A stretch of DNA of 64,000 nucleotides from Escherichia coli (GTDB taxonomy: Bacteria > Pseudomonadota > Gammaproteobacteria > Enterobacterales > Enterobacteriaceae), in the NCBI RefSeq assembly GCF_002854065.1, contig NZ_CP024147.1. The stretch is one strand, 5' to 3'. This document shows positions 1 through 50,600 of the stretch, in pieces (position 1 is the stretch's first letter; every line of letters begins with the position of its first letter). The position numbers and the translations under genes are program-made. The notes beneath the pieces were generated by a model. That model saw nothing but the letters and a program-made list of their open reading frames with translations, had not been told where the DNA came from and made no database searches.

Positions 1-629
1 AAAAAGAGCCGCCTGCACAGGCTGCTACACAATGAAAAAAGAATCATTCCACAAGCAAGGCACTTATGAGCAAGGTTAGTTGCCCTGGTGCTAACATAAC
101 GGTTAAGGCGGTAAGAACAAGCCACTAGCGGCTAAACGTTTTCCTTCCGAGTTGACAGTTTCCTGCTTGAGAGCTGCTCGTTTGTTAGCCAGAACAGGTT
201 AACGGATAAAATCAGTATATCCATAATAAATAAATAGTTGTTTAGCATTTATTTAAATAATGCCTTCCGAATAATACGCACTAAAATAATAAACAAGCTA
301 GGACTATCCAGTACTGCTAATTGATAGGCGCTCATGAAAACTGGAGAGATAATTGCTTCTGATTAGCCATCAATGCAATTACATCCTGGTCTGGGGATTC
401 CCGGGGGTTAAGTAGCGTGATTAACCATCATAAATATTGATTGAACTCATTTACCTAAAAAGCGCCATTTTGATAGGCTCGACTTAACTCGTTGACCATT
501 TACAGGATTGTAACGTTGGAAATCTTTTTTTAACCCACTGAAAAGTATCTCTTAAATATTTTTCATACATAAAAATTCATGGTCCGTTCAGTACGGATCC
601 GATTTTGTATGGGTTAAAAAAGGTACGTT

Positions 630-1238
630 ATGAAAGTTACATGGACCGTCACGCCTGTGGGGTATCAGCGCATCGCGAAACGATGCCCTTCATGCAACAT
701 TAAACGGGACTTCACGCCGTCAGGTGCATTTCGGGTTAATTCACAAAAGAAGGTGCTGGACGTGTGGAGTATCTATAAATGCACACACTGTGATTACACC
801 TGGAATATCTCCCTGTTTTCGCGTCTGCACGTCAGCAAAATTGACCGCCAGCTTTATCATCGACTAATGACAAACGATGCCGCCACGGTGCAGCACTTTG
901 CATGTGATATCGCGATGCTGAAGCGGAACAATGCAGAGCTATCGGGTCGGCCTGATTTTCACGTTCAGGAGCGCTGGCCGGTAAGCATCACCGCCCACCA
1001 GCGGGTTCGCGTTAGTGTCAGGATCTCCCGTTCATTTCAGGTAAGTCTGCTGTCGATTTTGAAGCAGCAGCTCATGCTGAGCGCTGGTGAGATTCAGAGA
1101 ATGGTGGAAGCAGGGCATATAAGTGGCGTTACACTGAAGTTGCTTAAATCGAGAAAGCTGAAGGCAGCGGAATATCACTTTCAGCTGACTGCGGAAATGT
1201 TATATGCCCGGCGCAGGATCGTTCTGACGCATCGTTAA
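630..1238 (+). CDS. Hypothetical protein with N-terminal CxxC...CxxC zinc-ribbon-like motif
   Basis: 202-aa ORF; CPSC and CTHC pairs near the N-terminus; no recognisable catalytic motif; lies in island cargo next to alpA-like gene. Confidence 0.45.
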   Translation: MKVTWTVTPVGYQRIAKRCPSCNIKRDFTPSGAFRVNSQKKVLDVWSIYKCTHCDYTWNISLFSRLHVSKIDRQLYHRLMTNDAATVQHFACDIAMLKRNNAELSGRPDFHVQERWPVSITAHQRVRVSVRISRSFQVSLLSILKQQLMLSAGEIQRMVEAGHISGVTLKLLKSRKLKAAEYHFQLTAEMLYARRRIVLTHR

Positions 1239-1454
1239 AATATTAAGCTCCCCTGAGGTAATAAACGCCCGTGTGGCAGCGGTTCAACATAATGCCAGAT
1301 AGGCCAGGGATAGGGGAGCTTCAGTTTTTCGGCTTCTGAATTGAGAACTTTAGTGAATGGGGTGATAGAGGATATCGCTTGAATTGTGCCGAGTCTAATG
1401 GTGCTTTAAGGATTGGGATATCGGGAAAGGTGTAGCTTAATTGAATGGGTTGTA

Positions 1455-1667
1455 TCAATGACCGCGTGAATCGGCAATGCGTTGCTGTAACCATAATTCG
1501 ACTTCACTTTTCTTCCAGCGGGAGCACCGGCCCAGCTTAATTGGCTTCGGGAACAGTCCGTCTTTTATCAACTTATAGAACCATTTATCCGTCAGCCCCG
1601 TTAGCTTTGTGATGAAGCGCATATCCACCAGTTGGTCATCAAGCAAAGAAATTTGTTCTGTCATGAT
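1455..1667 (-). CDS. alpA: AlpA-family prophage transcriptional regulator (excisionase-like)
   Basis: About 70 aa from internal Met (MTEQISLLDDQLVDMRFITKLTGLTDKWFYKLIKDG...SRWKKSEVELWL), typical AlpA-type helix-turn-helix pattern; start chosen by length match to family. Confidence 0.65.
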   Translation of the reverse strand: MMTEQISLLDDQLVDMRFITKLTGLTDKWFYKLIKDGLFPKPIKLGRCSRWKKSEVELWLQQRIADSRGH

Positions 1668-1771
1668 GCTGTCTTCCATTGTGGGATTATCCTGAGCTGG
1701 TGGTTGATTGCTCGTTACTACCAGCCCTTCCACATCAATGGATTGATACGTAAAAAAGTGCAGAACGTGAG

Positions 1772-2350
1772 TTATAGTGAGCGAGGACGCCCCAGTCCGC
1801 TGGGCGGCGGTACCTCACTGGCTCCGTAGTGATAGTGACCGTGCTTTTGCTCTTCTTTGGCAAGGTAGCTGATGATGTAGCGCAGGTTATCGATGGCTTC
1901 GGTATCATCGTAGTTCACCGGCTTATCAATACTGACGTCATAAGTAGGTTTGTATTCGCAGCGGTTGTAATAGCCTTCTCGTTGCGTTATTTCCCGCCAT
2001 ATTGTTCCGACTCTCTCAGCTATTGGGTAGGTAGCCTGGTTAAGGTGCCTGTCGAGATAGAACACGATATGAGCATGGCAGCCGTGGTCTACAGAGCTCT
2101 CCAGTACCCAGAAATACCCTGCCAGATTTGTGTGCTGCAGGGTGCGTTCAACCAGCATGCGTACCTCTCGCTCTGTTTCGTTCCATGAATGACGTTTAAA
2201 GCGCTCTGTACCTTTCTGATAGAACAGGTCGAGTCGGAGTGCCTGTATTTGGGAATATCGGTTCAGTAGCTGATTCAGGTGGTCATTGAGTAGAGACAGT
2301 AGAAACCAGTTCATCGTGTATCTGGGGTTAAATGGGTAAGGTGTATGCAT
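1772..2350 (-). CDS. Inovirus Gp2-like / YfjJ-YagK family prophage protein
   Basis: ORF extends to 2539, but Met at 2350 has an AAGGA box about 8 nt upstream; sequence resembles YfjJ/YagK family found next to alpA in CP4-type elements. Confidence 0.55.
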   Translation of the reverse strand: MHTPYPFNPRYTMNWFLLSLLNDHLNQLLNRYSQIQALRLDLFYQKGTERFKRHSWNETEREVRMLVERTLQHTNLAGYFWVLESSVDHGCHAHIVFYLDRHLNQATYPIAERVGTIWREITQREGYYNRCEYKPTYDVSIDKPVNYDDTEAIDNLRYIISYLAKEEQKHGHYHYGASEVPPPSGLGRPRSL

Positions 2351-2755
2351 TGATTTATCCTTTGTCAGGTGGAGTACAAAGGATTGGGATGGGATGTAAT
2401 TTTTAAGAGAAGCAGAGATACAGGGAACTGCGTATCCAGGGGAATACAGGCAGGGTTGCTTGTTGGGGAAGGGGCTATGAACAGAGTGGTATAGAAACAG
2501 GGAGTCCCCCTTAATTATACTAAAAACCCAAATGTTCATATCTGCTGTTGAACGATGCTAATGAGGTGAGCACAGGAGGATTGTAGGGTGAAAACAACAG
2601 GAATAATGCAGTAAAATGTCAGGCTTTTATCACAATTAAATCAGTAGGATATCAGTAAAAAATCAGCCATTCCTCAGCCTGTGACCCACCTCCCTCTACC
2701 TAAAAGATGCTCATGCTAATCTGTGTTCAGGAGCCAGAATTAGAGGGAGGAGACG

Positions 2756-3673
2756 ATGTTGCATTACGATATGATCCGCTATGAAATAATGTACCTAAAA
2801 ACGCTGGACAGGCATTTCAATACAGATCACTCGTTACTGTGCAGTACTTATGATAGGCCCGATGATTTTCGACGCTTGATCTCTCAGATACTTGAACGGC
2901 ATTTTCTTGGCGATCAGGACAGAATCAAAATTGCGCGGAAAACACTTAAAGAATGGGCTGACCTGCAACTGATTGATAAAGAATATTTTGATTGTTTCAA
3001 AGGCACACCAAGAGCATCGTGGTTTGCTCACCATTATATTTTTGAATACCCAGTATTACCTGCAGGGTTGAAACTTGGTGGGTTGGGGAATGACGTCGGT
3101 TGTTCAGGTGGTTTTAATTCTCTTTTAATGAACGATAATATCTTCACAAATCTTGATTTCTCTAATTTGAATATCGACCTGGACGATATAGATTGGGACC
3201 TGATAACAAATCCACAGGCCACTGCTTCGAAAAAAACGAAACGCGTTTTCTCCCGATTTTATCTGAACGCGGGAGCAAGTACCGATCTGTACAACCCCAC
3301 TCCGGTAACTGAGCGTGAACTCATCAATGGTGTGATGAGGTACATTGATGAAGCACCATGCTCACTTGGAGATAAGATCACTTATTTCAAAAAACTGCAT
3401 GAGCGCTGGCTTGAGCAATATGATTTTTTTCTAACAGATTTTGACTGGATGTCACGTGATGATGAAACTCAGTTAGTATATCTCTGGGACTATCTCAAAG
3501 GAAAGGGACGAATAGCGAGCTATCTTCGCCCTTATAATACGTCTATGCGTTATGACATGATTATTGCGGCTATGGATGTGTGGAACGCCCAACCTGAAGA
3601 GAAGCTGGAGTTTATTGAGAAGATGAAACATGCCTGGCAGGCAGCGAAATCTTACCGGAAATCTGCTAAATAG
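2756..3673 (+). CDS. Hypothetical protein (305 aa), island cargo, no recognised domain
   Basis: Long uninterrupted ORF with an acidic, Asp-rich central segment (NLNIDLDDIDWDL); convergent with the 158-aa gene and the Gabija operon. Confidence 0.5.
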   Translation: MLHYDMIRYEIMYLKTLDRHFNTDHSLLCSTYDRPDDFRRLISQILERHFLGDQDRIKIARKTLKEWADLQLIDKEYFDCFKGTPRASWFAHHYIFEYPVLPAGLKLGGLGNDVGCSGGFNSLLMNDNIFTNLDFSNLNIDLDDIDWDLITNPQATASKKTKRVFSRFYLNAGASTDLYNPTPVTERELINGVMRYIDEAPCSLGDKITYFKKLHERWLEQYDFFLTDFDWMSRDDETQLVYLWDYLKGKGRIASYLRPYNTSMRYDMIIAAMDVWNAQPEEKLEFIEKMKHAWQAAKSYRKSAK

Positions 3674-4035
3674 CGTTGTGATCGCAGTGATGTCTTGGTC
3701 TGATTTCTCAATGTAGTCATGAATCTGAGTCGACCCAGGGTCCTCTAACTATCTTTTCCTTGTCCCGTTAGGTACAAGCACATACTGTTAAAGATTAATA
3801 TGGCGGGGTATGGACGTCGGAGCTATGCCTACCTTTTAGATCGTTTGCTTCTGACTCGAAGCTTACAAGCTAGCTGATCTGAAGGTCCACTGTGAGCGAG
3901 GAGCGGACACCACGACTCACCAATAACTTGCTGCCCGCTTACGACCCAAAACCACCTATTGTATGTTAATTAATCTAGCAAACAAATGTTTAGCTTTTTA
4001 TCCGGCGAATGAAGCAAGAGAAATTGAACCCATTG

Positions 4036-4512
4036 CTAAGTATTACTGGGATTATTAAAAGGGATAATACTGGCCAATCCGTCATCTACATCAAGACCAT
4101 AGGCAACTGCTATTTCTGCCACAGAGGTACCACACTTTTTTCGCAGTTTAAAAAGCGCTCGCTCAAGCATAGATACTTGCACAGGATGATCAAATCGGAT
4201 GAACTGAGGGGAGCCAACACTGTCACCGAATTCTTGGCATGCCTTTCTCATTTTCCTTAATTGATTTGCTAAATATGAATCGCTCGGTAAACCTTGTAGG
4301 ATTTTAGTCAATTCAGATCTAATGCTGATAACACTCTGAATGCAATGACTAGTATCCTCCATATCGACAGGATTGAAAAGAACTCGCTTGTCCTCAAGAA
4401 AAATGACGATCTTCTTCGCTTCGTCAGCTTCTATTATTGGAGCATTCCACTGAATCCCGAATATAGGGCAGCTAAGGCCTGTAATATTTTTATAGATTCG
4501 TTCAAATTTCAA
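4036..4512 (-). CDS. Hypothetical protein (158 aa), apparent TTG start with strong Shine-Dalgarno
   Basis: AAGGAG box about 6 nt upstream of TTG at 4512..4510; same strand as and downstream of gajA/gajB; no recognisable motif. Confidence 0.5.
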   Translation of the reverse strand: MKFERIYKNITGLSCPIFGIQWNAPIIEADEAKKIVIFLEDKRVLFNPVDMEDTSHCIQSVISIRSELTKILQGLPSDSYLANQLRKMRKACQEFGDSVGSPQFIRFDHPVQVSMLERALFKLRKKCGTSVAEIAVAYGLDVDDGLASIIPFNNPSNT

Positions 4513-4689
4513 AACTCACTCCTTTGATGGACACATAACGCCTATACAGTCATGATGAGAAACGGACTCGGTTCGAGTAATCTGTTAGATAGCATCACTC
4601 GTAACTACTGTAAAAATAGTTGCTATCATGCTTATTGTCACTATAAATATTACTTAATGTCAGTCAGTTAAGAACGATTATTATCCCCC

Positions 4690-4725
4690 ACAATATAAAA
4701 TGTGTGTGGGGGCTATTTTTTCCAA
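4690..4725 (+). terminator. Putative rho-independent terminator (plus-strand orientation)
   Basis: Stem CCCCCACA/TGTGGGGG with about 10-nt loop followed by CTATTTTTT; lies between the 70-aa and 158-aa minus-strand ORFs. Confidence 0.45.
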
Positions 4726-4738
4726 GAGGTAGGCTTCA

Positions 4739-4951
4739 TCAAAGATAAACTACATGAGAAGAACGCCTTAACTTGCTCAAATGGATTGTGTTACAACAGT
4801 CTTGGTAACGTTTGCTATTGGCACATAGCGGGTCTTCAACCCAGTTAGCTCGCCCATTCTGTGCAAGTAGTGGACAATGAATGAAAAGATATTGGGTCGG
4901 ATTAACCTTGCGAAGGCCATCTAAGTCTGTGACGAACATTTCTTCAAGCAT
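4739..4951 (-). CDS. Small Cys-containing hypothetical protein (70 aa)
   Basis: ATG preceded by GAGGG about 7 nt upstream; four Cys residues; directly downstream of gajB; could be non-coding. Confidence 0.3.
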   Translation of the reverse strand: MLEEMFVTDLDGLRKVNPTQYLFIHCPLLAQNGRANWVEDPLCANSKRYQDCCNTIHLSKLRRSSHVVYL

Positions 4952-5085
4952 CTGAGGCCCTCAGCTCGCACCTAGAATTTTAATTTTGATGCATTTTGCC
5001 TTAGCTTGAGCATTGGAATGTGGCCTGATAACCGGTGTTTTCTTTTACTGGCCGTCCACAGACTCGATGACGCATTTATTCCCGA

Positions 5086-6903
5086 CTACCTTAAACCTGC
5101 CCCTCTCATTCGCTCCTCCAGTTCATCCAGAAATGGGGAACGCCCTAGACGCATAGGGCCGTAGCGACCATCAACAAAACCGGAATACAGCATATGCACC
5201 TCGTCCCGTGCGCGGGTCAGCCCCACATAGAAAAGACGTCGGCTTTCACGCAGCTTCTCTGGCGTCTCATTACGCCACGGCAAATTCCCCAGATCTAAGC
5301 CGACCATGATAACCACGTCATATTCGCAACCTTTGGCTGAGTGAAGTGTCAGCAAATTGAGGTGCTCAGGTGAACCGTCACGACCACCTAGGCTCGTGAT
5401 ATCCAACATCGCTAACGCACCGCCTTCGGCAAGTGCTGCAGTCATGCGATCTAGTTGCTCAGCCTGATCAGAAAGCGTTGGTTCAGTTGCCAGCAGGGAA
5501 TCAACGAGACCGTTGCGCAACGACGCGACAAAATCGGATGCAGAATGTTGGTCGGCACGAAGTGCCCAAAGTAGCCTGGTTAACTCCTGCCCCTTACTCC
5601 GGGCGCATGCATCATCCAGCCTTGCCCGATGAAATGCCAGATAACGGTCTATAAGTCCGCGCAGTTGAGGGCGCCCGATACGCCAACCGCCAGCACACCA
5701 TGCTGCGCAATCCTCCACCCAGCTCGTCAAGGCAACTTTGCGATAAGGTGCTGCGGTATCCACACGAATGTAATCAAAACCGCTAGCTGTCACCGCATCG
5801 GCCACAACATCGCCGGCACGGTAGTCCTTGTACAGAATGGCGATATCACCCAGTGTTCGGCCCGGCTTAGCAGCCAACGCAGCAGGAATAATCTGCTCGA
5901 CAGCATAGACAGCCTGATCCCCCAAGCCATCCGGACACAGCTGGAACGCAATGGTTGTCTGGCGGTTTGGGTCGTTTGCGCGATAACCACGAACCTCACC
6001 CAACACCATCTCCGATGCATTCACGATGTCCGCTCCTGATCTATAGTTCAACTGGAGCCGGACTGTTTCAACGTCTCTCCTGCCTGCCAGTTCTAGTAGT
6101 AACGCACCATCGGCACCAGTGAAACCGTAAATAGATTGGTCTGCATCACCCACTGCAAATAAGCGTACGCCTCCCTCGAAAGCCAGACGTTTGACCATAC
6201 GATGGAGTGCCACGCCCAAATCTTGATATTCATCTACCGCAAGGATCGGAAATTTCGCCTGTACTAGGGGCAGAACCCAATCATGCTCAATTATCAGACG
6301 CTGACCAAATATCACCATATCGTCGTAGTCTATCAGCCCTTGCTGCCGCAATGCAGCTTCGTAGGCCTCGGCCCATGCAGCGAGTTCCTCCTCTGTACGC
6401 CAGGCAACGCTGTTGCGATTCAACACCGAACGGCGATGCCGTCCGAGATCAATAGCCTTATAGGGATGGTTTGCGCCAAAGAGACGGTCACCAGATTGTC
6501 GAAGTAACCGTTCGCTCTCGCGCTGAGACGCTACTGACAGCGGAAATGGGATTGGCAGATCGGCCAGTCGCCCATAGGGCATCAACAGATGGCGCAAGCA
6601 GAACCCATGAACGGTTCCAATAAAGAGATTCGGTGCCTCTCTAAGCCCCAGCGCTTCGAGACGACGGGTTAGCTCGCGTGCGCATTCTTGGCTATATGTG
6701 ATACATGCCGCACCACGTGGAGCTTGAACATCCTCAGCTAGGATTCGTGCCAGCTTCAGCACAAGCGTCTTTGTCTTACCACTCCCCGGGCCCGCGAGCA
6801 CCACGCAGTGTCCCTGGGAGTGATACGCGGATAACTGGCCCGGATTCCCGGCCAGCTCGGCAGCCTGAGCTAAGTAGGCTGCACTGACACTACGTGACGG
6901 CAT
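5086..6903 (-). CDS. gajB: Gabija GajB-like UvrD/PcrA-family helicase
   Basis: Walker A VLAGPGSGKTKT, DEYQD box (LAVDEYQDLG) and further UvrD-like motifs; proposed start MPSRSV overlaps gajA stop by about 14 bp; longest ORF extends to 7005, so start is uncertain. Confidence 0.75.
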   Translation of the reverse strand: MPSRSVSAAYLAQAAELAGNPGQLSAYHSQGHCVVLAGPGSGKTKTLVLKLARILAEDVQAPRGAACITYSQECARELTRRLEALGLREAPNLFIGTVHGFCLRHLLMPYGRLADLPIPFPLSVASQRESERLLRQSGDRLFGANHPYKAIDLGRHRRSVLNRNSVAWRTEEELAAWAEAYEAALRQQGLIDYDDMVIFGQRLIIEHDWVLPLVQAKFPILAVDEYQDLGVALHRMVKRLAFEGGVRLFAVGDADQSIYGFTGADGALLLELAGRRDVETVRLQLNYRSGADIVNASEMVLGEVRGYRANDPNRQTTIAFQLCPDGLGDQAVYAVEQIIPAALAAKPGRTLGDIAILYKDYRAGDVVADAVTASGFDYIRVDTAAPYRKVALTSWVEDCAAWCAGGWRIGRPQLRGLIDRYLAFHRARLDDACARSKGQELTRLLWALRADQHSASDFVASLRNGLVDSLLATEPTLSDQAEQLDRMTAALAEGGALAMLDITSLGGRDGSPEHLNLLTLHSAKGCEYDVVIMVGLDLGNLPWRNETPEKLRESRRLFYVGLTRARDEVHMLYSGFVDGRYGPMRLGRSPFLDELEERMRGAGLR

Positions 6904-8674
6904 CGCAGATATACTCCAGTGCTTCACGAATGTAATCCGGGCATACATCCTCCGACACCGAGGGTGCCAGCGCTTGGGCGAACCGCCCTTTGCCAATTCG
7001 CTCAATCAGTTTCAACAACCGGACATTATCAAGCTGGTCCGTGTCATCCACCCACGCCTGTATCCTGTTCAGAGTAGCTCGTCTAGGAGACAATTCCTGC
7101 TCGATAACCAACTTCATGGCTTCGCCCAGTCCACCGGTAAACAGCTCTGGCTCCAGAGTGGTCTCATTGACGAAGCATCCAAAATCTCCGGCACGTGCAA
7201 TCACCTCCTCGGTAGTCATATCATCATGATCAACATCGCTCTCAAGCACGTCTAAGATATTGATAAATCTCTTACGAACCAGCGGCTCTCCATCCTCCTC
7301 AGGATCGCGGTCTGTCAGAATCACATGTGGAATATTGAGTCCCCGCGGCCCTAGGAGCTTCACATACGGAGTGAAATTTGTTCCACCGATCGAGCACACC
7401 GTGATCCCAAGCATATCTAGGGGAATATTAAGAGCATCAGCGAATGCTGGGACAAGAAAGCGTTCAGCATCCCCTTCCACCAAGATCACCCCACGTGAAA
7501 AGAATATTTCGCCGCGAGTGACATCGATATAGCGCTGCAGATCATCTTCGTCCCGCGGCGTAAACGGTGCGTTTGCCGTTGAAACCGCAATCGTCTTCCC
7601 TCCCTCCGGATCATGGCGCAGCAAAACGATGGATCTGATTGGTGTGACGCTGGCGATATGCGGGGAATGGGTGGTCAGGATCGTTGTCAACGGTGTTCCT
7701 TCATCACCATTGTCTCCGTCAGTCCCTAGGAAATAACGGTAAACCAGGCGCTGTACGTGCGGATGTAGGTGCGCTTCCGGCTCCTCGACTACGAAAAACG
7801 TATGGTCTCGTTCTCCGTCATTAACAAGACGATCAAGTTCGAGGCTTTTTAGGGCAAGAAAAATCAGATTAGCTGTCCCCAGACTGGCATCGCCAATGCC
7901 ACGAATGCCACTATCAAGCAGCAAACGCAGGCTACGTAGCAGCGCATCAACGCGAGTCGGTGCAAGTCCGAGCGATACCGGAACGGCATGTTGCTCACCT
8001 GCGATAGCTATCAACCTTTCGCTAATTCGTTCGGCTGTCGCTGCCACCTCATCATGATCAGCCAGTTCCCGTTGAGCCTCATCAACTTGGGTTTGAATCT
8101 CCTCACGAGTCTCGTCGTCCAGAGATGCGGACAGTTCTTCAATAAGCGGTCTTAAGGGTGAATTACGCCAGCTTGAAAGGTCCTTCTCGGCATCACGCAA
8201 CGCGCCTTGAACATCAATGGGCAACATACGGCGAAAGGCACCACCAATATGCATGTCAGGATCAGCTCCACCGAAGATCACATACTCATAATCTTTTAAC
8301 GATTCAGGAGCTCGATTTAACGCGGTTTTGGGCTGAAAGCGGTAGGTAAGACGGGCCACCATCGGAGGCCCCGGATTTAGGACACAGTCATTCAGATGAG
8401 CCATCAATCGGGGATCGTCAGTGAACTCAGTAAGATCCACTGAAATTTCGATGGTCTCCCCCAGTTTGTCTTCGCCCAATCCATCCCAAAAATGTTCAAA
8501 ACCCAGTTGACGGTCACGCTCAGACAACCCTGGGTCAAGAATCAGCTGCAGGCCGCGAATAAAATTGCTCTTGCCAACCTTGTTTTCACCAACAATAACA
8601 ATACTCTCACCCGTTTCAACATCAACATCGGAGAAGTTGGCGAAATTAATTAACCGGATTCGGGAAATCCGCAT
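6890..8674 (-). CDS. gajA: Gabija GajA-like OLD-family ATPase/TOPRIM nuclease
   Basis: 594 aa; N-terminal ABC ATPase P-loop (VGENKVGKSN); C-terminal TOPRIM-like acidic motifs (ILVEGDAE, ILTDRDPEE); immediately upstream of and overlapping the UvrD-like helicase gene. Confidence 0.8.
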   Translation of the reverse strand: MRISRIRLINFANFSDVDVETGESIVIVGENKVGKSNFIRGLQLILDPGLSERDRQLGFEHFWDGLGEDKLGETIEISVDLTEFTDDPRLMAHLNDCVLNPGPPMVARLTYRFQPKTALNRAPESLKDYEYVIFGGADPDMHIGGAFRRMLPIDVQGALRDAEKDLSSWRNSPLRPLIEELSASLDDETREEIQTQVDEAQRELADHDEVAATAERISERLIAIAGEQHAVPVSLGLAPTRVDALLRSLRLLLDSGIRGIGDASLGTANLIFLALKSLELDRLVNDGERDHTFFVVEEPEAHLHPHVQRLVYRYFLGTDGDNGDEGTPLTTILTTHSPHIASVTPIRSIVLLRHDPEGGKTIAVSTANAPFTPRDEDDLQRYIDVTRGEIFFSRGVILVEGDAERFLVPAFADALNIPLDMLGITVCSIGGTNFTPYVKLLGPRGLNIPHVILTDRDPEEDGEPLVRKRFINILDVLESDVDHDDMTTEEVIARAGDFGCFVNETTLEPELFTGGLGEAMKLVIEQELSPRRATLNRIQAWVDDTDQLDNVRLLKLIERIGKGRFAQALAPSVSEDVCPDYIREALEYICDAVT

Positions 8675-9229
8675 TACTGCCTCCCTATCTTTTTAATTAT
8701 CTTCCCAAAATAAGAGTAGAACTCAAACCACAAGAGACTGCCTGGCACGACCAAATTTGCTGAGGGATACGGTTGCGATCAGAACGGTACTTGGTCATTG
8801 CACATTTTTTACTGTTCAAATCTATGCGTCCAACGAAGGTAACAACCTATCGTAACAGAGAGCTAAAACATGCCTATGATCCATCTCACATAGTGGCTGT
8901 TTGTCGTCACAGTCTTACAATGCACTCTGTGCAATGCATTACTCCCATTGGCCGACCAGACCGATGAACTGGCACGGCGGTGTGCTTCACACACTCTAGC
9001 GATACGGCACAATATCAACAGACACTGACTGGCCTCGTCAAAATAGTACAGTACAGACTTAGCACCGTCTGACTTTGGCGCTAAGCGGAGATCTTTCAGT
9101 CTTGGACTGCACAAAGTCCTTTGCGTTAATCTAAAATTCCAAATAATTTCAGACAGATATTATCTCATTGAATCCCCGCCTTCCTGACTGGATCGCGGGG
9201 TTTTTAATTTTTCACGCTGAGACTTCTGT

Positions 9230-10105
9230 ATGAATAAACCTGACGGCCTTCAGGCCTTTGAACAACCGCTTGCGTCGCTTCCGTGCACACTTCGCCAGCT
9301 TATTCTTGAACGTATCCAGAACCTGACCCATTACGAGCCGGTGATTGGAATCATGGGCAAAAGTGGTACAGGTAAATCCTCTCTCTGCAACGAACTTTTC
9401 CGGGGCGAGGTGTCCCCGGTGAGTGACGTGAATGCCTGTACTCGCGACGTGCTGCGTTTCCGGTTACGCAGTGGGCGTCACAGCCTGGTGATTGTTGATT
9501 TACCGGGCGTGGGCGAAAACGGGCAGCGGGATCAAGAATACCGTGCCCTGTACCGTCGAATCCTGCCGGAGCTGGACCTGGTGCTGTGGGTCATTAAGGC
9601 CGATGATCGGGCACTAACCGTGGACGAGCAGTTCTGGCACGGTGTGATGCAAACTTACAGGCAAAAGGTACTGTTCGTGATTAACCAGGCCGACAAAATC
9701 GAACCCTGCCATGAATGGGATACCCTCACCAGCAAACCTTCACCGCACCAACTGGGAAATCTTAAAGCGAAGCAGGCTGCGATTATGGTGATGTTTAAAC
9801 CGCATCATCCGGTCTGTGTGGTGTCAGCCCGCACTGGATGGGGCATTGAGGAGATGGTGGCAGCCATGATGCGCTGTCTGCCTGACCGCGCCACCAGCCC
9901 GGTGGTGACACAACTGCACAGGAAACTCTGCACAGAGCCGGTAAAGTCGCAGGCTCGTGACAGTTTCGGTGAAGCTGTGGGCCGGGTTTTCGATACCGCA
10001 GAATCATCTTCGTTCCTGTCTACATCGCTGAAAACGGTGATTCGTAGCGTGCGTGATGCGGTGGTGTCGGTCGCACGGGCCGTCTGGGACTGGATATTCT
10101 TCTGA
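9230..10105 (+). CDS. Prophage-associated GTPase, YkfA/YfjP/YeeP family
   Basis: 291 aa; P-loop GKSGTGKSS and DLPG motif; this family is typical of CP4-type islands. Confidence 0.75.
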   Translation: MNKPDGLQAFEQPLASLPCTLRQLILERIQNLTHYEPVIGIMGKSGTGKSSLCNELFRGEVSPVSDVNACTRDVLRFRLRSGRHSLVIVDLPGVGENGQRDQEYRALYRRILPELDLVLWVIKADDRALTVDEQFWHGVMQTYRQKVLFVINQADKIEPCHEWDTLTSKPSPHQLGNLKAKQAAIMVMFKPHHPVCVVSARTGWGIEEMVAAMMRCLPDRATSPVVTQLHRKLCTEPVKSQARDSFGEAVGRVFDTAESSSFLSTSLKTVIRSVRDAVVSVARAVWDWIFF

Positions 10106-10348
10106 TATCGCAATTTTCTCTGCGAATGATGAACTTGTTGTTAATGATGTGTTGATTGTGGACACGTCCTTTCCATTGCGTTTTATCATCAACAAAATCA
10201 GGAGAAGCATCATTATCTGTCAGACGAGCGCTCACAAGGCCGGGCTGCTCATAAAAAATAGTTCCGATGTTGTCCATACCCTGTCCACCCCTTCCTTTAA
10301 AGTAATCATTATTAATTCAGAGAGTTAACTTCTCAGGAGAAATCTTTC

Positions 10349-11065
10349 ATGACGCTTCAGGAGCGGCGACATGACCGGCTTGCCGTCAGGTTGTCGTTGA
10401 TTATCAGCCGCCTGGTGTCCGGTGAAACTCTGTTTATTCGCAAACTGGCAACTGAATTCGGGGTGTCAGAGCGCACGTTACGTCGTGACTTTCGGGAACG
10501 TCTGATGTATCTCGACCTGGATTATTACCAGGGGCAGTGCAGTCTGCGCTCGGATATTCACAGTACGCGGCAGGAAATAGATATTCTGACCTTTGCTCAC
10601 CGTACGGGGCTGGCCGGGGTTTTCCCGGGCTTTGACCGGCGACTGGTCAGCAGCCTGCTGGACTGTGATGATCGACCCTGTCTGGTATGGCATCAGGACA
10701 GACCTCATCCCCCGGCAGGAAAGCTCTCCTTCTACAGGCTGGTCAGAGCTATTTCTGAATGTCAGCGCATCACCATTCTGACTGAAGGGGAGCGTCATGA
10801 GGCCGTTGCACCTTACCGGCTAATCGCTCTGGACGGTTACTGGTATCTGGTCGCTGAACATAACAGGCAATTACGTGTCTTCCGGCTGGATGAGATTCAT
10901 CTGGTAAGGCCATCGCGGGAAACATTTATTCGCAGTGAGCTTCTCTATCAGCTGTCGGAGGATAAACATTTTATCTCTGCCTTACCTCATTTCCGTTTTA
11001 TTCAGCAGTCGCTGAATTCATTTTCTCCCTCAGAAAGTCGGGGGCAATCCGGACAAACTGATTAG
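10349..11065 (+). CDS. WYL-domain transcriptional regulator, YfjR-like
   Basis: 238 aa; N-terminal HTH ([16 protein letters not shown]), C-terminal YWYL-containing segment ([11 protein letters not shown]). Confidence 0.7.
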
Positions 11066-11100
11066 AGATGGTCTCCATAATTAAATGTAAGGTTAATCTA

Positions 11101-11553
11101 ATGAAAGAATTGAAATTGTTGTCTTTACTGCCAGTCATATTGTTCCCCTTACTTATCGCAGGTAATGCTCACGCAGCACGTCCTTATAGCGGATTCCTGC
11201 CTGCAGCAGTGAATAATAAGAGTGGGAATATATTCTGGTGTGATGCCCACCGCCAGGTCAGAAAACTGTGTACAGCGACGGAAGTGGATTCAATGGGATG
11301 GTTTATTGTTGTTCGCTCGAAACCTTCCAGAGATTGTCCGGGGGGCCTTTGGGGGTGGATCACTCCCAGTAAAGACGATGTAGCAACAGGGTATACCATT
11401 ACGCCAGGTAAAGAATTCAATCTCACCATGAAGGATATGTGCAGTCCCGATATGAAAGTAACGTTCCGCCCGAATAAAAAGGACCCTCGTTATGACGATC
11501 TCGTCGGGATTTATGCAGGGAAAGAAGCTTTTCGCTACAAACAAATAAAATAA
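11101..11553 (+). CDS. Secreted or periplasmic hypothetical protein
   Basis: Signal-peptide-like N-terminus MKELKLLSLLPVILFPLLIAGNAHA; start taken at internal Met. Confidence 0.5.
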   Translation: MKELKLLSLLPVILFPLLIAGNAHAARPYSGFLPAAVNNKSGNIFWCDAHRQVRKLCTATEVDSMGWFIVVRSKPSRDCPGGLWGWITPSKDDVATGYTITPGKEFNLTMKDMCSPDMKVTFRPNKKDPRYDDLVGIYAGKEAFRYKQIK

Positions 11554-11624
11554 TCCAACTGTTTTTTCGTTACTTTATTGTTTTAAACAACAAAAGCCTT
11601 ATTACATGATTTGAGGACAACATT

Positions 11625-12098
11625 ATGCGACTGCCTTACGTAATATTTACATTAGCTATGCTGGCTTCTGTATCAACAGCACAGGCTATTCCCAATATGT
11701 GGACGAGTGGTTTTGGGATGGGCGTGACCGAATATATTATTACCAGCCCGGAGAAGGTGGTGTTTAATCTGAACTGTACTGGCAATCCGGATGCGCAGAA
11801 TATTCTGCAACACGGTGTTGATCTCACCCTGCCTGATGGAACATCAGTAAGCTCTCATGACGACGGAACGGAAATCACGGTCGTCATGGATAACAGTCAG
11901 TATCCGTTACCGTCATTCCTCGGCTGGCGAAACGGTGACAATGCCTGGGTGTCATTTATTGACGCCCTGAGCCAGTCTGCGAATTTTGATGTTTACGTCA
12001 ACGATAAAAAAGTCGGCACCTTCAGTCCGGGGCTGAAGAATACGCAGAAAGAGCTGTCTGACCTCAGTGAGTGCCGGACCACACACTACAGCGATTAG
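11625..12098 (+). CDS. Secreted or periplasmic hypothetical protein
   Basis: 157 aa; signal peptide MRLPYVIFTLAMLASVSTAQA; followed by a clear intrinsic terminator. Confidence 0.55.
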   Translation: MRLPYVIFTLAMLASVSTAQAIPNMWTSGFGMGVTEYIITSPEKVVFNLNCTGNPDAQNILQHGVDLTLPDGTSVSSHDDGTEITVVMDNSQYPLPSFLGWRNGDNAWVSFIDALSQSANFDVYVNDKKVGTFSPGLKNTQKELSDLSECRTTHYSD

Positions 12099-12153
12099 TT
12101 ACTTACATTTCAGACCTCTCCAGCCCGCTACGCACCAACACCAGATAGCAACA

Positions 12154-12190
12154 GGCCATGCTCCTTCGGGAACATGGCCTTTTTTGTTTT
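12154..12190 (+). terminator. Rho-independent terminator
   Basis: GGCCATGCTCCTTCGGGAACATGGCC hairpin followed by a T-run. Confidence 0.6.
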
Positions 12191-12218
12191 TATTTGATTA
12201 TCAGATAAGGAGTTAGCT

Positions 12219-13040
12219 ATGCGACTAGCCAGCCGCTTTGGCCGTATAAACCAGATACGCCGTGACCGGCCTCTGACCCACGAAGAGCTGATGAGTCATG
12301 TACCCAGCGTGTTCGGGAGTGACAAGCATGAATCTCGTTCAGACAGGTACACCTACATCCCGACCATCACCATCCTCGAAAGCCTGCAGCGGGAAGGCTT
12401 TGAGCCGTTCTTTGCCTGCCAGACAAAAGTTCGCGACCAGAGCAAGCGGGAGCACACCAAGCACATGCTTCGACTGCGTCGCTCCGGGCAACTGACCGGG
12501 CATCAGGTGCCGGAAATCATTCTACTTAACAGCCATGACGGCTCATCAAGCTACCAGATGCTGCCGGGCCTGTTTCGTGGCGTCTGTACCAACGGCCTGG
12601 TCTGCGGTCAGTCATTCGGAGAAGTGCGGGTACCGCATAAAGGGAATGTTGTCGAGAAGGTGATTGAAGGGGCTTACGAAGTGCTCGGTGTGTTTGACCG
12701 GGTGGAGGAGAAGCGCGATGCAATGCAGTCACTGGCACTGCCAGAACCAGCCCGTAACGCCCTGGCGAATGCCGCGCTGAAGTATCGCTTTGGTGAAGAC
12801 CACCAGCCGGTCACGGTATCGCAGTTGCTGACCCCACGTCGCCGGGAGGACTACAGCGATGACCTGTGGACCGTATACCAGCGCGTGCAGGAGAACCTGA
12901 TGAAAGGAGGTCTGTCAGGGCGAACCGCTCAGGGGAAAAGCAGCCGCACCCGTGCTGTTATCGGCATTGACGGCGATGTGAAACTCAATCGCGCCCTGTG
13001 GATTATGGCAGAAAACATGCTCGAATTTTTCGGGCGTTAA
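12219..13040 (+). CDS. DUF932-family protein (YfjQ/YafZ-like)
   Basis: 273 aa, the same length as the K-12 prophage paralogs; sequence resembles that family. Confidence 0.65.
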   Translation: MRLASRFGRINQIRRDRPLTHEELMSHVPSVFGSDKHESRSDRYTYIPTITILESLQREGFEPFFACQTKVRDQSKREHTKHMLRLRRSGQLTGHQVPEIILLNSHDGSSSYQMLPGLFRGVCTNGLVCGQSFGEVRVPHKGNVVEKVIEGAYEVLGVFDRVEEKRDAMQSLALPEPARNALANAALKYRFGEDHQPVTVSQLLTPRRREDYSDDLWTVYQRVQENLMKGGLSGRTAQGKSSRTRAVIGIDGDVKLNRALWIMAENMLEFFGR

Positions 13041-13070
13041 ACAACCGTTCCGGCATAAGGAGATAGTTTA

Positions 13071-13511
13071 ATGGATACCCACAACCCTGAGTTTGCTGAG
13101 CAGGCAGCAATTACTGCCTCGGTAGTCCCTGACGAGTTACGTATCGGCTTCTGGCCAAAGCGCTTTGGATCTATCCCACAATGGATAACCCTTGAGCCCC
13201 AAATATTTGGCTGGATGGATCGTCTGTGCGCTGATTACAGCGGCGGCGCCTGGAGCTTTTACACACTCAGCAACGGCGGCGCATTTATGGCTCCGGAGCC
13301 CGACGGTGAGAAGTGGACGTTGTTCAACCCGATGAATGGAAACGATGCGGAGATGAGCGGAGAGGCTGCCGGTATAGCGGCCTGCCTGATGGCATACAGC
13401 CACCACGCTTGTCGCACCGAATGTGACGCGATGACTGAGCACTATTATCGCTTACGTGACTACGCGCTAAACCATCCGGAATGCAGCGCCATTATGTATC
13501 TAATCGACTGA
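13071..13511 (+). CDS. Antirestriction protein, ArdB/KlcA family (YfjX/YafX-like)
   Basis: 146 aa; resembles the CP4-type antirestriction paralogs; position between DUF932 and RadC-like genes matches that module. Confidence 0.7.
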   Translation: MDTHNPEFAEQAAITASVVPDELRIGFWPKRFGSIPQWITLEPQIFGWMDRLCADYSGGAWSFYTLSNGGAFMAPEPDGEKWTLFNPMNGNDAEMSGEAAGIAACLMAYSHHACRTECDAMTEHYYRLRDYALNHPECSAIMYLID

Positions 13512-13523
13512 GGAATACCTGAC

Positions 13524-14066
13524 ATGAATATCGCATTATCCCCGGTATCATCGCAGCCTGAACTCTTTCCGCTGGCGGTTATGGCCCAGCATAGTTGCCT
13601 GCTCCCCGCGACCTCCGGATTGACACCTTATGCCCAACGGACCATTCGACGTGCTATCAACCTGCTGGATAAATATCTGCGCCAGCCCGGCATGTCCTTT
13701 ACCTCAAGCACGGCTGCCCGTGACTGGCTTCGGTTACAGCTGGCAGGACAAGAACGGGAAGTGTTTATGGTGCTCTATCTCGATAACCAGCACCGTTTAC
13801 TGGAGAGTGAAACGCTATTTGCCGGTTCGGTTAACCATGTCCAGGTCCATCCCCGTGAGGTGGTGAAGTCAGCGCTTCGCTTCAATGCTGCTGCTGTTGT
13901 GCTGGCGCATAACCATCCATCCGGTGATCCGGAGCCCAGCCAATGTGACCGCAACATTACGGGCAGGCTTAAAGAAGCGCTGGCACTGGTTGATGTGAAC
14001 ACTCTCGATCATCTGGTTATCGGTTCAGATGGAATTGTGTCGTTTGCAGAGCGAGGCTGGATATGA
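13524..14066 (+). CDS. RadC-like JAB-domain protein (YeeS/YfjY/YkfG family)
   Basis: HNHPSGDPEPS JAMM-like motif; start may be the internal Met at about 13581. Confidence 0.75.
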   Translation: MNIALSPVSSQPELFPLAVMAQHSCLLPATSGLTPYAQRTIRRAINLLDKYLRQPGMSFTSSTAARDWLRLQLAGQEREVFMVLYLDNQHRLLESETLFAGSVNHVQVHPREVVKSALRFNAAAVVLAHNHPSGDPEPSQCDRNITGRLKEALALVDVNTLDHLVIGSDGIVSFAERGWI

Positions 14067-14076
14067 GGGCACTTCA

Positions 14077-14418
14077 ATGAAATCTACTGACTCAGAGAAC
14101 GATTCATTTCTCAAGTGGGGTCTGAATCGTAATGTGACACCTTGCTTTGGCGCTCGTCTGGTACAGGAGGGAAACCGGCTGCACTATCTGGCTGACCGGG
14201 CCAGTATCACCGGTAAGTTCAGCGAAGCAGAATGTCTTAAGCTGGATATGGCATTCCCGCATTTTATTAGCCAGATGGAATCGATGCTGACTACTGGTGA
14301 AATGAATCCTCGCCATGCCCACTGTGTCACCCTGTACCACAATGGTTTCACCTGCGAAGCCGATACCCTTGGCAGTTGCGGCTACGTATACATCGCCGTT
14401 TACTCCACCCATCGTTAA
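14077..14418 (+). CDS. CbeA/YeeU/YfjZ-family antitoxin (type IV TA)
   Basis: 113 aa from internal Met; [23 protein letters not shown] is close to the YeeU sequence. Confidence 0.8.
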
Positions 14419-14438
14419 CTACTTTCACAAGAGCAAAT

Positions 14439-14780
14439 ATGAAAACTCTACCTGCAACAAATCCGCAGGCGGCGAAGCTATGTCTGTCGCCCGTGGCTGT
14501 CTGGCAAATGCTGCTTGCACGCCTGCTGGAACAACATTATGGCCTGACACTCAACGACACGCCATTCAGTGATGAAACGGTAATTCAGCAACATATCGAT
14601 GCCGGTATATCTTTGGCCGATGCCGTTAATTTTCTGGTGGAAAAGTACGGGCTGGTTCGTATTGATCGCAGGGGATTCGACTGGCAAGAACAGTCCCCAT
14701 ATCTGCGGGCAGTCGATATTCTGCGGGCGCGACAGGCAACTGGTTTATTGAAAAGAAATCGTATTAGCGCGGCACGGTGA
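14439..14780 (+). CDS. CbtA/YeeV/YkfI-family toxin (type IV TA)
   Basis: 113 aa from internal Met; directly follows the cognate antitoxin; sequence resembles the YeeV/YpjF family. Confidence 0.8.
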
Positions 14781-14783
14781 ATA

Positions 14784-15017
14784 TTGGGAATAGCCTTCCT
14801 GATTCACACTGCAGCTTTCCTTACTTATTTAATTTACTCATTCCAAAAAGCACCTGCCGATGCTGGTTGGTGCTTTTACTTATATGGACGAAATATCATG
14901 CAAATAGAAGCTGTAATTTTAACTGGGCACATTATCGCAAGTACAATCCGGGAATGCTGGGCCGTCGTTGTTGATGGTTTTGACGCATGCGGCGAACAAG
15001 CTTATGATCCAGCTTAA
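14784..15017 (+). CDS. Small hypothetical protein following the toxin (YeeW-like position)
   Basis: 77-aa ORF starting 4 bp after the toxin stop; coding status uncertain. Confidence 0.3.
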   Translation: MGIAFLIHTAAFLTYLIYSFQKAPADAGWCFYLYGRNIMQIEAVILTGHIIASTIRECWAVVVDGFDACGEQAYDPA

Positions 15018-15043
15018 TTTCTTTTCCTCATGAAGGGACGGGT

Positions 15044-16051: not shown

Positions 16052-16211
16052 ATCTTGCTTTGATAGCCATATCGGTGTTCTACTGGTATGGCTTTATACC
16101 CACTTGCAATGTCTATTTTTTATACGGACTTTAACTTGTGGGTACAAGTGTGGGTATAACTATTTATTCCTATTTATAAACTGCATTGATATCAGTCTGT
16201 TAGGTGTGAAA

Positions 16212-16248
16212 TTCGAGTCCGGCCTTCGCACCTTCGCACCTTCGCACC
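16212..16248 (+). repeat. Degenerate tRNA 3' end repeat (leuX-like), probable island attR
   Basis: TTCGAGTCCGGCCTTCGCACC resembles the T-arm/acceptor 3' end of tRNA-Leu (leuX); TTCGCACC is triplicated and ends in CCA; no full tRNA is present. Confidence 0.55.
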
Positions 16249-50286: not shown

Positions 50287-50600
50287 AACAAACAACTCCT
50301 TGTCCGGAGAACCCCAATGGGGAAAACGAAATTCAATACCGTCGGTAATGACGAAAGGCAGGCGAGAAGGACAAATGTACTGAATTTCATGTAATCAACC
50401 ACACTGCCTGCGAATACACAGACAGAGAAATACCTTCTGACTCCAGGTCAGAATGTATAACGATTACAAATAGTCATCAGCACATTACACCTCTTTAATT
50501 GATGGCTTGCATAGAAAATATACACCTTAAGTGTAATTAAAATTTGGTAATGCTGCCAACTTACTGATTTAGTGTATGATGGTGATTTTAAGGTGCTTGC

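What the first reader, a model, noticed from the sequence alone, without database searches (positions are those of the whole stretch)
5086..8674. Gabija-type defense operon (OLD-family ATPase/TOPRIM nuclease plus UvrD-like helicase) in island cargo
The 594-aa protein has an ABC-ATPase P-loop (VGENKVGKSN) and C-terminal TOPRIM-like acidic motifs (ILVEGDAE, ILTDRDPEE), which is the OLD-family architecture. Its stop overlaps the start of a UvrD/PcrA-like helicase (AGPGSGKTKT, DEYQD). An OLD-class nuclease paired with a UvrD-like helicase is the defining arrangement of the Gabija anti-phage system. The helicase here is about 605 aa, longer than the roughly 500 aa I remember for characterised GajB, so it may carry an extra segment.
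Basis: partly seen in the sequence, partly recalled or inferred. Interest (0 to 1): 0.55.

Follow-up and report, generated by a model that had tools for sequence, protein, structure and literature searches.

The report
Intact Gabija anti-phage operon (gajA-gajB)

Summary
On the minus strand, gajA (8674..6890, 594 aa) and gajB (6903..5086, 605 aa) overlap by 14 nt.

PADLOC GajA and GajB profiles match end to end (E 5.8e-234 and 4.6e-238). All seven catalytic residues defined in the crystallised Class 2 OLD nuclease of B. pseudomallei sit at identical positions. GajA residues 374-593 are 75% identical to the X. campestris OLD crystal construct.

GajB has every SF1 helicase motif checked. The high-confidence AlphaFold model superposes best on Rep, PcrA and UvrD.

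The "extra segment" idea is not borne out. About 600 aa is the norm for this clade, and B. cereus GajB is the trimmed outlier.

The pair moves as a 3.9-kb module between enterobacterial islands and occurs in 20 of 5,426 complete E. coli genomes. Here it lies in a leuX-linked CP4-type island. A P. aeruginosa orthologue (79% and 85% identity) sits in the PAPI-1-type ICE hotspot. It is probably the same clade as the tested PA14 Gabija.

The finding is ordinary: a correct call of a known system.

The parts
6890..8674 (-). gajA: a Class 2 OLD-family nuclease of 594 aa. Residues 1-373 (window 7556-8674) form the N-terminal ABC-type ATPase region. It carries Walker A 29-36 (K35), Walker B VVEEPE 295-300 and the H-loop TTHSPH 334-339 (H336).
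   Evidence: ORF and translation. PADLOC GajA PDLC00070, E 5.8e-234, residues 1-593 against profile positions 1-595 of 596. Pfam AAA_15, AAA_21 and OLD-like_TOPRIM. Motif positions. The alignment to B. cereus GajA maps H320 to H336.
6893..7555 (-). GajA C-terminal catalytic region (residues 374-594): a Toprim domain with the helical insert specific to Class 2 OLD proteins. Metal A ligands are E400, D455 and D457. Metal B ligands are E404, T506 and E508. The catalytic lysine is K562.
   Evidence: phmmer against XccOLD CTR 6njv, E 2.6e-104, and BpOLD CTR 6nk8, E 6.4e-86. Identity is 74.7% and 61.8%. The BpOLD alignment is ungapped, and all seven residues sit at the same numbers. Those residues are defined in PMC6755086. 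B. cereus GajA E379, D432 and D434 align to E400, D455 and D457.
5086..6903 (-). gajB: a UvrD/PcrA/Rep-like SF1 helicase of 605 aa. It has a Q-motif-like NPGQ at 20-23, motif I AGPGSGKT at 37-44 (K43), motif II DEYQD at 224-228, GDADQSIY at 252-259, NYRS at 286-289, TLHSAKG at 519-525 and YVGLTRA at 559-565.
6890..6903 (-). 14-nt overlap between the gajB start codon (ATG, 6903-6901) and the gajA stop codon (TAG, 6892-6890). It implies one transcript and probably translational coupling.
   Evidence: Sequence. The P. aeruginosa orthologous pair has the same 14-nt overlap, at L005 6001-6014.
8680..8685 (-). Shine-Dalgarno sequence GGGAGG, 5 nt upstream of the gajA ATG.
   Evidence: Sequence upstream of gajA.
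4988..8916 (-). The 3.9-kb module shared between different enterobacterial islands: gajAB with 242 bp upstream and 98 bp downstream. The upstream part presumably holds the promoter, which was not located.
   Evidence: blastn of the window against other E. coli contexts. L003 and L004 match window 4988-8916 at 91-92% identity. L002 matches 4813-9070 at 94%. The flanking genes differ between contexts. The consensus promoter scan found nothing convincing in 8675-8916.

Best explanation
This is an intact Gabija system, also called a Class 2 OLD system. It is a two-gene operon. GajA is an ABC-ATPase/Toprim nuclease that cuts DNA by two-metal catalysis. GajB is a UvrD-like SF1 motor.

Shown here:
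- Both genes are full length.
- All the catalytic and nucleotide-binding residues checked are present.
- The gene pairing and the 14-nt overlap are conserved.
- The pair travels as a module among genomic islands and ICEs.

Inferred by homology:
- The two proteins assemble into a GajA4:GajB4 complex that attacks incoming phage DNA.
- For this clade (X. campestris, B. pseudomallei, P. aeruginosa ICE), the most likely mode is the one reported for P. aeruginosa PA14 Gabija. The complex acts directly and non-abortively on linear DNA ends that RecBCD is kept away from. This blocks phage genome circularisation and replication. RecBCD activity protects host DNA.
- The GajA ATPase acts as a regulatory or nucleotide-sensing switch, and GajB supplies ATP-driven engagement of DNA ends.
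For: Identity as Gabija:
- PADLOC GajA and GajB match full length, and the Pfam architecture fits.
- The GajA C-terminal region is 75% identical to the crystallised XccOLD and 62% to BpOLD.
- E400, E404, D455, D457, T506, E508 and K562 are conserved in place.
- The Walker A, Walker B, H-loop and Toprim motifs align with B. cereus GajA K35, H320, E379, D432 and D434.
- The GajB motifs are present, and its confident model is UvrD/Rep/PcrA-like.

Pairing:
- The same OLD-then-helicase arrangement occurs in P. aeruginosa (79% and 85% identity, ungapped, same overlap).
- It also occurs next to helicase homologues of only 33% and 29% identity.

Defence context and mobility:
- The pair lies in a leuX CP4-type island alongside a type I RM system and an Mrr-like PDC-S02 gene.
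- The same module occurs in other islands next to Hachiman, an HNH-Dcm pair and ABC-three-component genes.
- It is present in only 20 of 5,426 complete E. coli genomes, always as a pair.
- The module is 52% GC against 44% for the left flank.

Mechanism, from the literature:
- A 4:4 complex degrades phage DNA (PMC10781630).
- Two-metal catalysis, with BpOLD and XccOLD nuclease activity non-specific and unaffected by ATP concentration (PMC6755086; PMC10568477).
- PA14 Gabija is non-abortive, blocks circularisation and is excluded by RecBCD (PMC12407980).
- The P. aeruginosa orthologues lie between TraG and a helicase, which is PAPI-1 GI-Hotspot 2, where Gabija is common.
Against: - No experiment exists for this E. 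coli locus, so neither expression nor protection is shown.
- I could not obtain the PA14_60070/60080 sequences, so the link to the PA14 study rests on context (ICE hotspot) and on a DESQ tetrapeptide present in the P. aeruginosa orthologues. That DESQ sits at residue 430 in a variable stretch, not at motif II, where these proteins have DEYQD.
- No convincing promoter was found upstream.
Confidence: 0.9

Rival explanations
1. The system is the same, but it works by the B. cereus paradigm. GajA is held off by cellular NTPs. When phage replication depletes nucleotides, GajA nicks DNA at specific sites. GajB then hydrolyses (d)ATP and (d)GTP, which leads to abortive infection.
For: This is the model derived from the only biochemically dissected Gabija (summarised). 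The ATPase H-loop histidine implicated in nucleotide sensing (H320 in B. cereus, H317 in ECOR49) is conserved here as H336.
Against: The close relatives BpOLD and XccOLD cut DNA non-specifically and are unaffected by ATP concentration in vitro (PMC10568477). The probable closest tested relative, PA14 Gabija, was reported as non-abortive and acts before replication. GajB here keeps the N-terminal NPGQ element that B. cereus GajB lacks, and it is structurally closer to Rep, PcrA and UvrD.
Confidence: 0.25
2. The pair is an element-maintenance or inter-MGE conflict module. It would act against plasmids or ICEs, or stabilise the island, with phage defence secondary or absent.
For: The module is always on mobile islands or ICEs. 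PA14 Gabija also restricts plasmids that carry end-binding proteins (abstract of PMC12407980). E. coli plasmid Gabija lies in plasmid leading regions.
Against: Every tested Gabija protects against phages. No replication or partition genes are linked to the module, whose neighbours differ between contexts.
Confidence: 0.05
3. The pair is a silent or decaying remnant: intact-looking genes that are not expressed or no longer functional in this degenerate island.
For: No consensus promoter was detected upstream. The native upstream region of PA14 Gabija is repressive. In strain 744, the complete genome closest to the window, the region to the left (mostly beyond the window's left end) carries several pseudogene fragments.
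Against: Alignments to orthologues of 79% and 85% identity are ungapped and full length. All the catalytic residues checked are kept. The Shine-Dalgarno sequence is strong. All 20 E. coli copies are complete pairs. Exactly these protein sequences occur on more than 600 contigs.
Confidence: 0.05
4. It is a housekeeping DNA-repair helicase (UvrD, Rep or PcrA) next to an unrelated stand-alone (Class 1) OLD nuclease.
For: The helicase fold is closest to Rep, PcrA and UvrD.
Against: NCBIfam scores for pcrA, uvrD and rep are 157-179 bits against cut-offs of 911-1144. The overlapping reading frames and the pairing are conserved down to 29% identity. GajA has the Class 2-specific helical insert and its T506, E508 and K562 residues. 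Distribution is sporadic, at 0.4% of E. coli genomes.
Confidence: 0.01

Closest known systems
Class 2 OLD nucleases of Xanthomonas campestris pv. campestris and Burkholderia pseudomallei (PDB 6NJV, 6NK8; Schiltz et al. 2019, PMC6755086)
   Same: The length is the same (594-595 aa). The alignment to BpOLD is ungapped. The C-terminal region is 74.7% (Xcc) and 61.8% (Bp) identical. The Toprim domain with its helical insert is shared, and all seven active-site residues sit at the same numbers. Both are paired with a UvrD-like helicase by definition of the class.
   Different: Those proteins were studied only in vitro and without their helicase partner, and no phage phenotype is known for them. The host and genomic context differ.
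Gabija of P. aeruginosa PA14 (PA14_60070/60080, PAPI-1; Hong et al. 2025 preprint, PMC12407980)
   Same: P. aeruginosa ICE-borne orthologues are 79% (GajA) and 85% (GajB) identical to this pair. They have identical lengths within one residue and the same 14-nt overlap. They lie between TraG and a helicase, which is PAPI-1 GI-Hotspot 2. If PA14's system is one of these, its mechanism (non-abortive, blocks circularisation, RecBCD protects) is the best guide.
   Different: I could not retrieve the PA14 sequences, so identity with the tested system is likely but unverified. The host, phage panel and RecBCD/Chi context differ. The upstream regulatory DNA is not homologous: only the coding regions align, at 72% nucleotide identity.
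Gabija of Bacillus cereus VD045 (GajA/GajB; PDB 8SM3, 8J4T, 8JQB and others)
   Same: The two-gene architecture, the domain order and the key residues are shared: K35, H-loop His, Toprim Glu, the DxD motif and the SF1 motifs.
E. coli ECOR49 / plasmid-borne Gabija linked to tmn (Wu et al., bioRxiv 10.1101/2022.08.21.504612)
   Same: It is in the same species, is the same system type and was tested against coliphages. It gave 10^5-fold protection against lambda.
   Different: It is a different clade. No plasmid record carries this module apart from one mislabelled Klebsiella chromosome. All 20 E. coli copies of this clade are chromosomal.

Membership tests
Gabija / Class 2 OLD system | [quoted passage not shown] | tested here: met
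   PADLOC GajA PDLC00070, E 5.8e-234, full length. Pfam AAA_15, AAA_21 and OLD-like_TOPRIM. T. scotoductus OLD 6p74 matches residues 165-458.
Gabija / Class 2 OLD system | Class 2-specific helical insert in the Toprim region, with two-metal ligands E400, E404, D455, D457, T506 and E508 and the catalytic K562 (BpOLD numbering) | tested here: met
   The alignment to the BpOLD C-terminal region is ungapped and all seven residues are at identical positions. Identity is 74.7% to the XccOLD and 61.8% to the BpOLD C-terminal region.
Gabija / Class 2 OLD system | GajA ATPase motifs: Walker A lysine, Walker B and H-loop histidine | tested here: met
   GENKVGKS at 29-36 (K35), VVEEPE at 295-300 and TTHSPH at 334-339 (H336). 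These align to B. cereus GajA EEPE and H320.
Gabija / Class 2 OLD system | GajB: a UvrD/PcrA/Rep-like SF1 helicase encoded immediately downstream in the same operon | tested here: met
Gabija / Class 2 OLD system | The OLD-helicase pairing is conserved across relatives | tested here: met
   P. aeruginosa orthologues. Helicase homologues at 33% and 29% identity again directly follow an AAA_15 plus OLD-like_TOPRIM gene. A third contig was too short to tell. All 20 E. coli copies are pairs.
Gabija / Class 2 OLD system | GajA4:GajB4 supramolecular complex | not testable with these tools
   Known for B. cereus (PMC10781630; PMC10681800). No multimer prediction or biochemistry was available here.
Gabija / Class 2 OLD system | Both genes are required for protection against phage | not testable with these tools
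   Shown for the B. cereus, ECOR49 and PA14 systems, but not for this locus.
Class 1 OLD (stand-alone, P2 Old-like) | A single old gene with no helicase partner and a Toprim domain without the helical insert | tested here: not met
   The helicase partner overlaps the gene. The helical-insert residues T506, E508 and K562 are present.
Class 3 OLD (retron effector, Eco8-type) | An adjacent reverse transcriptase and msr/msd ncRNA, and a match to the retron effector model | tested here: not met
   NCBIfam retron_eff_Eco8 scores 44 bits against a cut-off of 250. There is no Rfam hit in 3600-9400. No annotated neighbour within the island is a reverse transcriptase; the ones that were searched gave no such match.
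Housekeeping UvrD / Rep / PcrA | Reaches the NCBIfam equivalog cut-off | tested here: not met
   pcrA scores 179 against 911, uvrD 157 against 1144 and rep 158 against 951 bits.

The most novel reading that the evidence does not exclude
The proteobacterial clade to which this system belongs (XccOLD, BpOLD, P. aeruginosa ICE, enterobacterial islands) may work differently from the B. cereus paradigm.

Its GajB keeps an adenine-binding N-terminal element of the kind found in UvrD and Rep, and it is structurally closer to bona fide unwinding enzymes. It could therefore be a true translocase or helicase that loads at free DNA ends in competition with RecBCD.

The E. coli member would let this be tested in the organism where RecBCD, Chi and lambda Red/Gam genetics are best developed.
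Probability: 0.3. Interest if true: 0.35.

Novelty: already known. Interest (0 to 1): 0.15.

Why it matters
The practical value is modest. The finding shows that the first-stage reader can recognise a defence operon from motifs alone. It also adds one annotated Gabija to a leuX defence island.

RefSeq names these proteins only "ATP-dependent nuclease" and "ATP-dependent helicase". No NCBIfam model reaches its cut-off for them, so a specific label is a small annotation gain.

Biologically, this clade is strikingly conserved and mobile. GajB is 75-94% identical among the 120 closest 90%-identity clusters, whose named members span alpha-, beta- and gammaproteobacteria. Its nuclease has crystal structures, but its in vivo behaviour in E. 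coli is untested. A native E. coli member could be useful for RecBCD-related mechanism studies.

Tried and rejected
1. The first AlphaFold run on GajB used a shallow alignment of homologues at least 74% identical (A1). It gave pLDDT 53 and was discarded. A 113-sequence alignment of diverse representatives (A2) gave pLDDT 94.
2. I tried to fetch plasmid CP083423.1, the reference tmn-Gabija plasmid, to measure identity to the tested E. coli plasmid Gabija. It is not in the collections.
3. I looked for PA14 GajA/GajB sequences or mutated residue numbers in Hong et al. and its supplements. None are given.
4. The consensus promoter and terminator scan of 3600-9400 found no convincing minus-strand promoter in the conserved 242 bp upstream of gajA. 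The only minus-strand hit near the start lies inside the coding sequence.
5. An Rfam scan of 3600-9400 at E up to 0.1 found nothing.
6. A 14-nt inverted repeat (4922-4935 and 8904-8917) roughly brackets the module. About two such pairs are expected by chance in 4.9 kb (my estimate), and the left arm lies outside the 4988 boundary, so I rejected it as a mobility signal.
7. I looked for a third conserved gene. DUF6650, the 70-aa ORF and the 305-aa ORF have no PADLOC or NCBIfam hit and do not accompany the module in other contexts.
8. The phage collection has no match to the module, even in distant mode.
9. I considered a discrete extra domain in GajB and rejected it. The model shows the usual 1A/1B/2A/2B layout. 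By my rough comparison with the published B. cereus subdomain boundaries, the roughly 110 extra residues are spread over all subdomains.
Full report
OBSERVATION

The finding's coordinates (5086-8674) are exactly the span of two long minus-strand ORFs. gajA runs 8674..6890 and encodes 594 aa. It starts at the first start codon after an upstream stop, so it cannot be longer. A GGGAGG Shine-Dalgarno sequence lies 5 nt before its ATG.

The maximal downstream ORF begins at a TTG at 7005. The ATG at 6903 gives 605 aa, which agrees with the RefSeq annotation and with homologue lengths of 603-607 aa. This ATG overlaps the gajA TAG stop by 14 nt.

WHAT IT IS

PADLOC profiles give full-length matches. 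GajA matches PDLC00070 at E 5.8e-234 (residues 1-593 against profile positions 1-595 of 596). GajB matches PDLC00117 at E 4.6e-238 (residues 5-600 against 2-601 of 604), and also PDLC00108. Pfam shows AAA_15, AAA_21 and OLD-like_TOPRIM for GajA, and UvrD-helicase, AAA_19 and UvrD_C for GajB.

Against the PDB, GajA residues 374-593 match the crystallised C-terminal regions of the Class 2 OLD nucleases of X. campestris (6NJV, E 2.6e-104) and B. pseudomallei (6NK8, E 6.4e-86). Identity is 74.7% and 61.8%.

Schiltz et al. (PMC6755086) defined the catalytic machinery of the class as E400, D455 and D457 (metal A), E404, T506 and E508 (metal B), and K562. The alignment to BpOLD is ungapped, and all seven residues occur at the same numbers here.

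The characterised B. cereus GajA is only distantly similar (E about 1e-11, residues 292-459). Even so, its Walker B, H-loop H320, Toprim E379 and DxD D432/D434 align to VVEEPE, H336, E400 and D455/D457. The Walker A lysine is K35.

GajB carries a Q-motif-like NPGQ at 20-23, identical to Rep's N-terminal NPGQ in the phmmer alignment. It also carries AGPGSGKT, DEYQD, GDADQSIY, NYRS, TLHSAKG and YVGLTRA.

NCBIfam equivalogs for PcrA, UvrD and Rep score 157-179 bits against cut-offs of 911-1144. The retron Eco8 effector model scores 44 against 250. So this is neither a housekeeping helicase nor a retron OLD.

THE "EXTRA SEGMENT" QUESTION

The 120 closest clusters are 75-94% identical. Apart from a few truncated entries they are 603-607 aa long. 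Their named members come from gamma-, beta- and alphaproteobacteria.

In a search of 1.84 billion 50%-identity representatives, 2,475 proteins match at E of 1e-30 or better. Of the best 150, 107 are 570-640 aa long (median 598). All 107 have DEYQD, and the matches are single full-length stretches.

A first AlphaFold model from a shallow alignment was poor (pLDDT 53) and I did not use it. A 113-sequence alignment of diverse homologues gave pLDDT 94.3 and pTM 0.92.

Oh et al. (PMC10681800) report that B. cereus GajB lacks UvrD's N-terminal adenine-binding element, gating helix, GIG motif and separation pin, and that it does not unwind DNA. So the 605-aa protein is the normal-sized form and B. 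cereus GajB is the reduced one.

By my rough comparison of subdomain boundaries, the difference of about 110 residues is spread over all four subdomains. It includes the N-terminal NPGQ helix. There is no added domain.

CONTEXT

The window is E. coli chromosome. Positions 4500-9300 are 100% identical to strain 744, and positions 1-16232 are 99.9% identical and colinear with it.

In strain 17MR471 the whole island is readable. The gene order is:
- leuX tRNA-Leu and an integrase;
- type I R-M genes hsdS, hsdM and hsdR;
- a WYL protein, then a hypothetical, a TIR-domain protein and another hypothetical;
- zinc-ribbon genes, an AlpA-like HTH regulator and YfjJ;
- a 305-aa hypothetical and DUF6650;
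- gajB and gajA;
- a GTPase-family protein, an HTH regulator, two hypotheticals, DUF932, an antirestriction protein, RadC and the YeeU/CbtA pair;
- an Mrr-like restriction endonuclease, an HNH endonuclease, then nanS', nanM, nanC and fimB.

This is a CP4-type island, with Gabija in its variable cargo slot.

The same pair, at 91-96% nucleotide identity, occurs in other places. One is a CP4-type island at tRNA-Thr beside proA, next to an HNH-Dcm pair and an AAA ATPase pair. Another lies near tRNA-Asn beside cobT and ldtA, next to Hachiman or ABC-three-component genes. Homology between these contexts is confined to window 4988-8916. The unit that moves is therefore the two genes with 242 bp upstream and 98 bp downstream.

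Twenty of 5,426 complete E. coli genomes carry the module. All copies are complete pairs, and all are chromosomal. Exactly these protein sequences occur on more than 600 contigs, and the named copies are mostly from Klebsiella and other Enterobacterales. The module is 52% GC against 44% for the left flank.

No neighbour matches a Gabija-associated family, and none is conserved with the module. No Rfam family, phage record or plasmid record matches, apart from one Klebsiella chromosome filed as a plasmid.

RELATIVES THAT HAVE BEEN TESTED

P. aeruginosa carries an orthologous pair of 594 and 606 aa. GajA is 79.1% and GajB 84.8% identical, both alignments are ungapped, and the 14-nt overlap is the same. 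In three of the four loci shown, the pair lies in an ICE between TraG and a helicase.

That position corresponds to GI-Hotspot 2 of PAPI-1-type islands, where Gabija is among the commonest cargo (PMC12629846). PA14's Gabija (PA14_60070/60080) lies in PAPI-1 (bioRxiv 10.1101/621433). Hong et al. showed it to need both genes and their active sites, to be non-abortive and to block phage genome circularisation. It is licensed by phage end-binding proteins that exclude RecBCD, and its native upstream DNA represses it (PMC12407980).

I could not obtain the PA14 sequences. The paper's "DESQ" motif occurs in the P. aeruginosa orthologues, but at residue 430 in a variable stretch, while motif II is DEYQD. 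I therefore rate identity of clade as likely (about 0.8) but not shown.

The E. coli ECOR49 Gabija, which is plasmid-type and linked to tmn, belongs to another clade.

MECHANISM

Shown here: the genes are intact, the catalytic residues are intact, and the operon structure and pairing are conserved.

From the literature on relatives: the Toprim site cuts DNA by two-metal catalysis. GajA and GajB form a 4:4 complex that degrades phage DNA.

My commitment for this clade is direct, end-directed attack on incoming linear DNA that RecBCD does not occupy, as in PA14. The alternative is the B. cereus model of nucleotide depletion, sequence-specific nicking and abortive infection. Three points favour the first. 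BpOLD and XccOLD are non-specific and unaffected by ATP concentration in vitro. The probable PA14 orthology points the same way. GajB is also more UvrD/Rep-like.

VERDICT

The extra-segment speculation is not supported. This is a known system type, detected by existing tools, with crystal structures of close homologues. I rate the novelty as "already known" and the interest as low.

Noticed in passing
window 15044-16051 (+): A 335-aa Mrr-like "restriction endonuclease" at the right end of the island matches the PADLOC candidate family PDC-S02 over its full length (E 1.8e-81). It has no NCBIfam model. It is probably a second, uncharacterised defence gene in the same island.
   Followed up: partly
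window 2756-3673 (+) and 4036-4512 (-): A 305-aa ORF has no Pfam, PADLOC or NCBIfam hit at all. A DUF6650 gene sits beside it. Both lie between YfjJ and Gabija in the island's cargo slot. They do not travel with the Gabija module. They are unexplained cargo and possible defence candidates.
   Followed up: partly
window about 16232: The window is colinear with strain 744 only up to 16232. At that point strain 744 carries an additional integrase, IS1 and Hachiman (HamA plus a DEAD/DEAH helicase) insertion that the window lacks. The window continues into an HNH endonuclease, nanS', nanM, nanC and fimB. This looks like a nested integration hotspot.
   Followed up: partly
window 30226-30999 and 50546-51313: Two IS1-like copies, 96% and 93% identical to the IS1 of strain 744, lie further along the window.
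   Followed up: no
L005-L007 (P. aeruginosa), 4230-7821: An orthologous gajAB pair (79% and 85% identity, same 14-nt overlap) sits between TraG and a 759-aa helicase in a PAPI-1/pKLC102-type ICE. In L008 the same pair is next to TrbI, CagX, VirB8 and TrbL genes instead. GajB is unusually conserved for a defence gene: 75-94% identity among its 120 closest clusters, whose named members span alpha-, beta- and gammaproteobacteria.
   Followed up: partly
window 4922-4935 and 8904-8917: A 14-nt inverted repeat (13 of 14 complementary) roughly brackets the mobile module. About two such pairs are expected by chance in this stretch (my estimate), so it is probably not meaningful.
   Followed up: yes
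window 5086-8674: No NCBIfam model reaches its cut-off for either protein. RefSeq therefore names them only "ATP-dependent nuclease" and "ATP-dependent helicase". In other strains the gajA start is called 11 or 41 codons further upstream, giving 605 or 635 aa.
   Followed up: partly
L009 11921-15087 (left of the window, same island): A WYL-domain gene is followed by a hypothetical, a TIR-domain protein and another hypothetical, next to a type I R-M system. This may be another defence module in the island. It lies outside the window.
   Followed up: no
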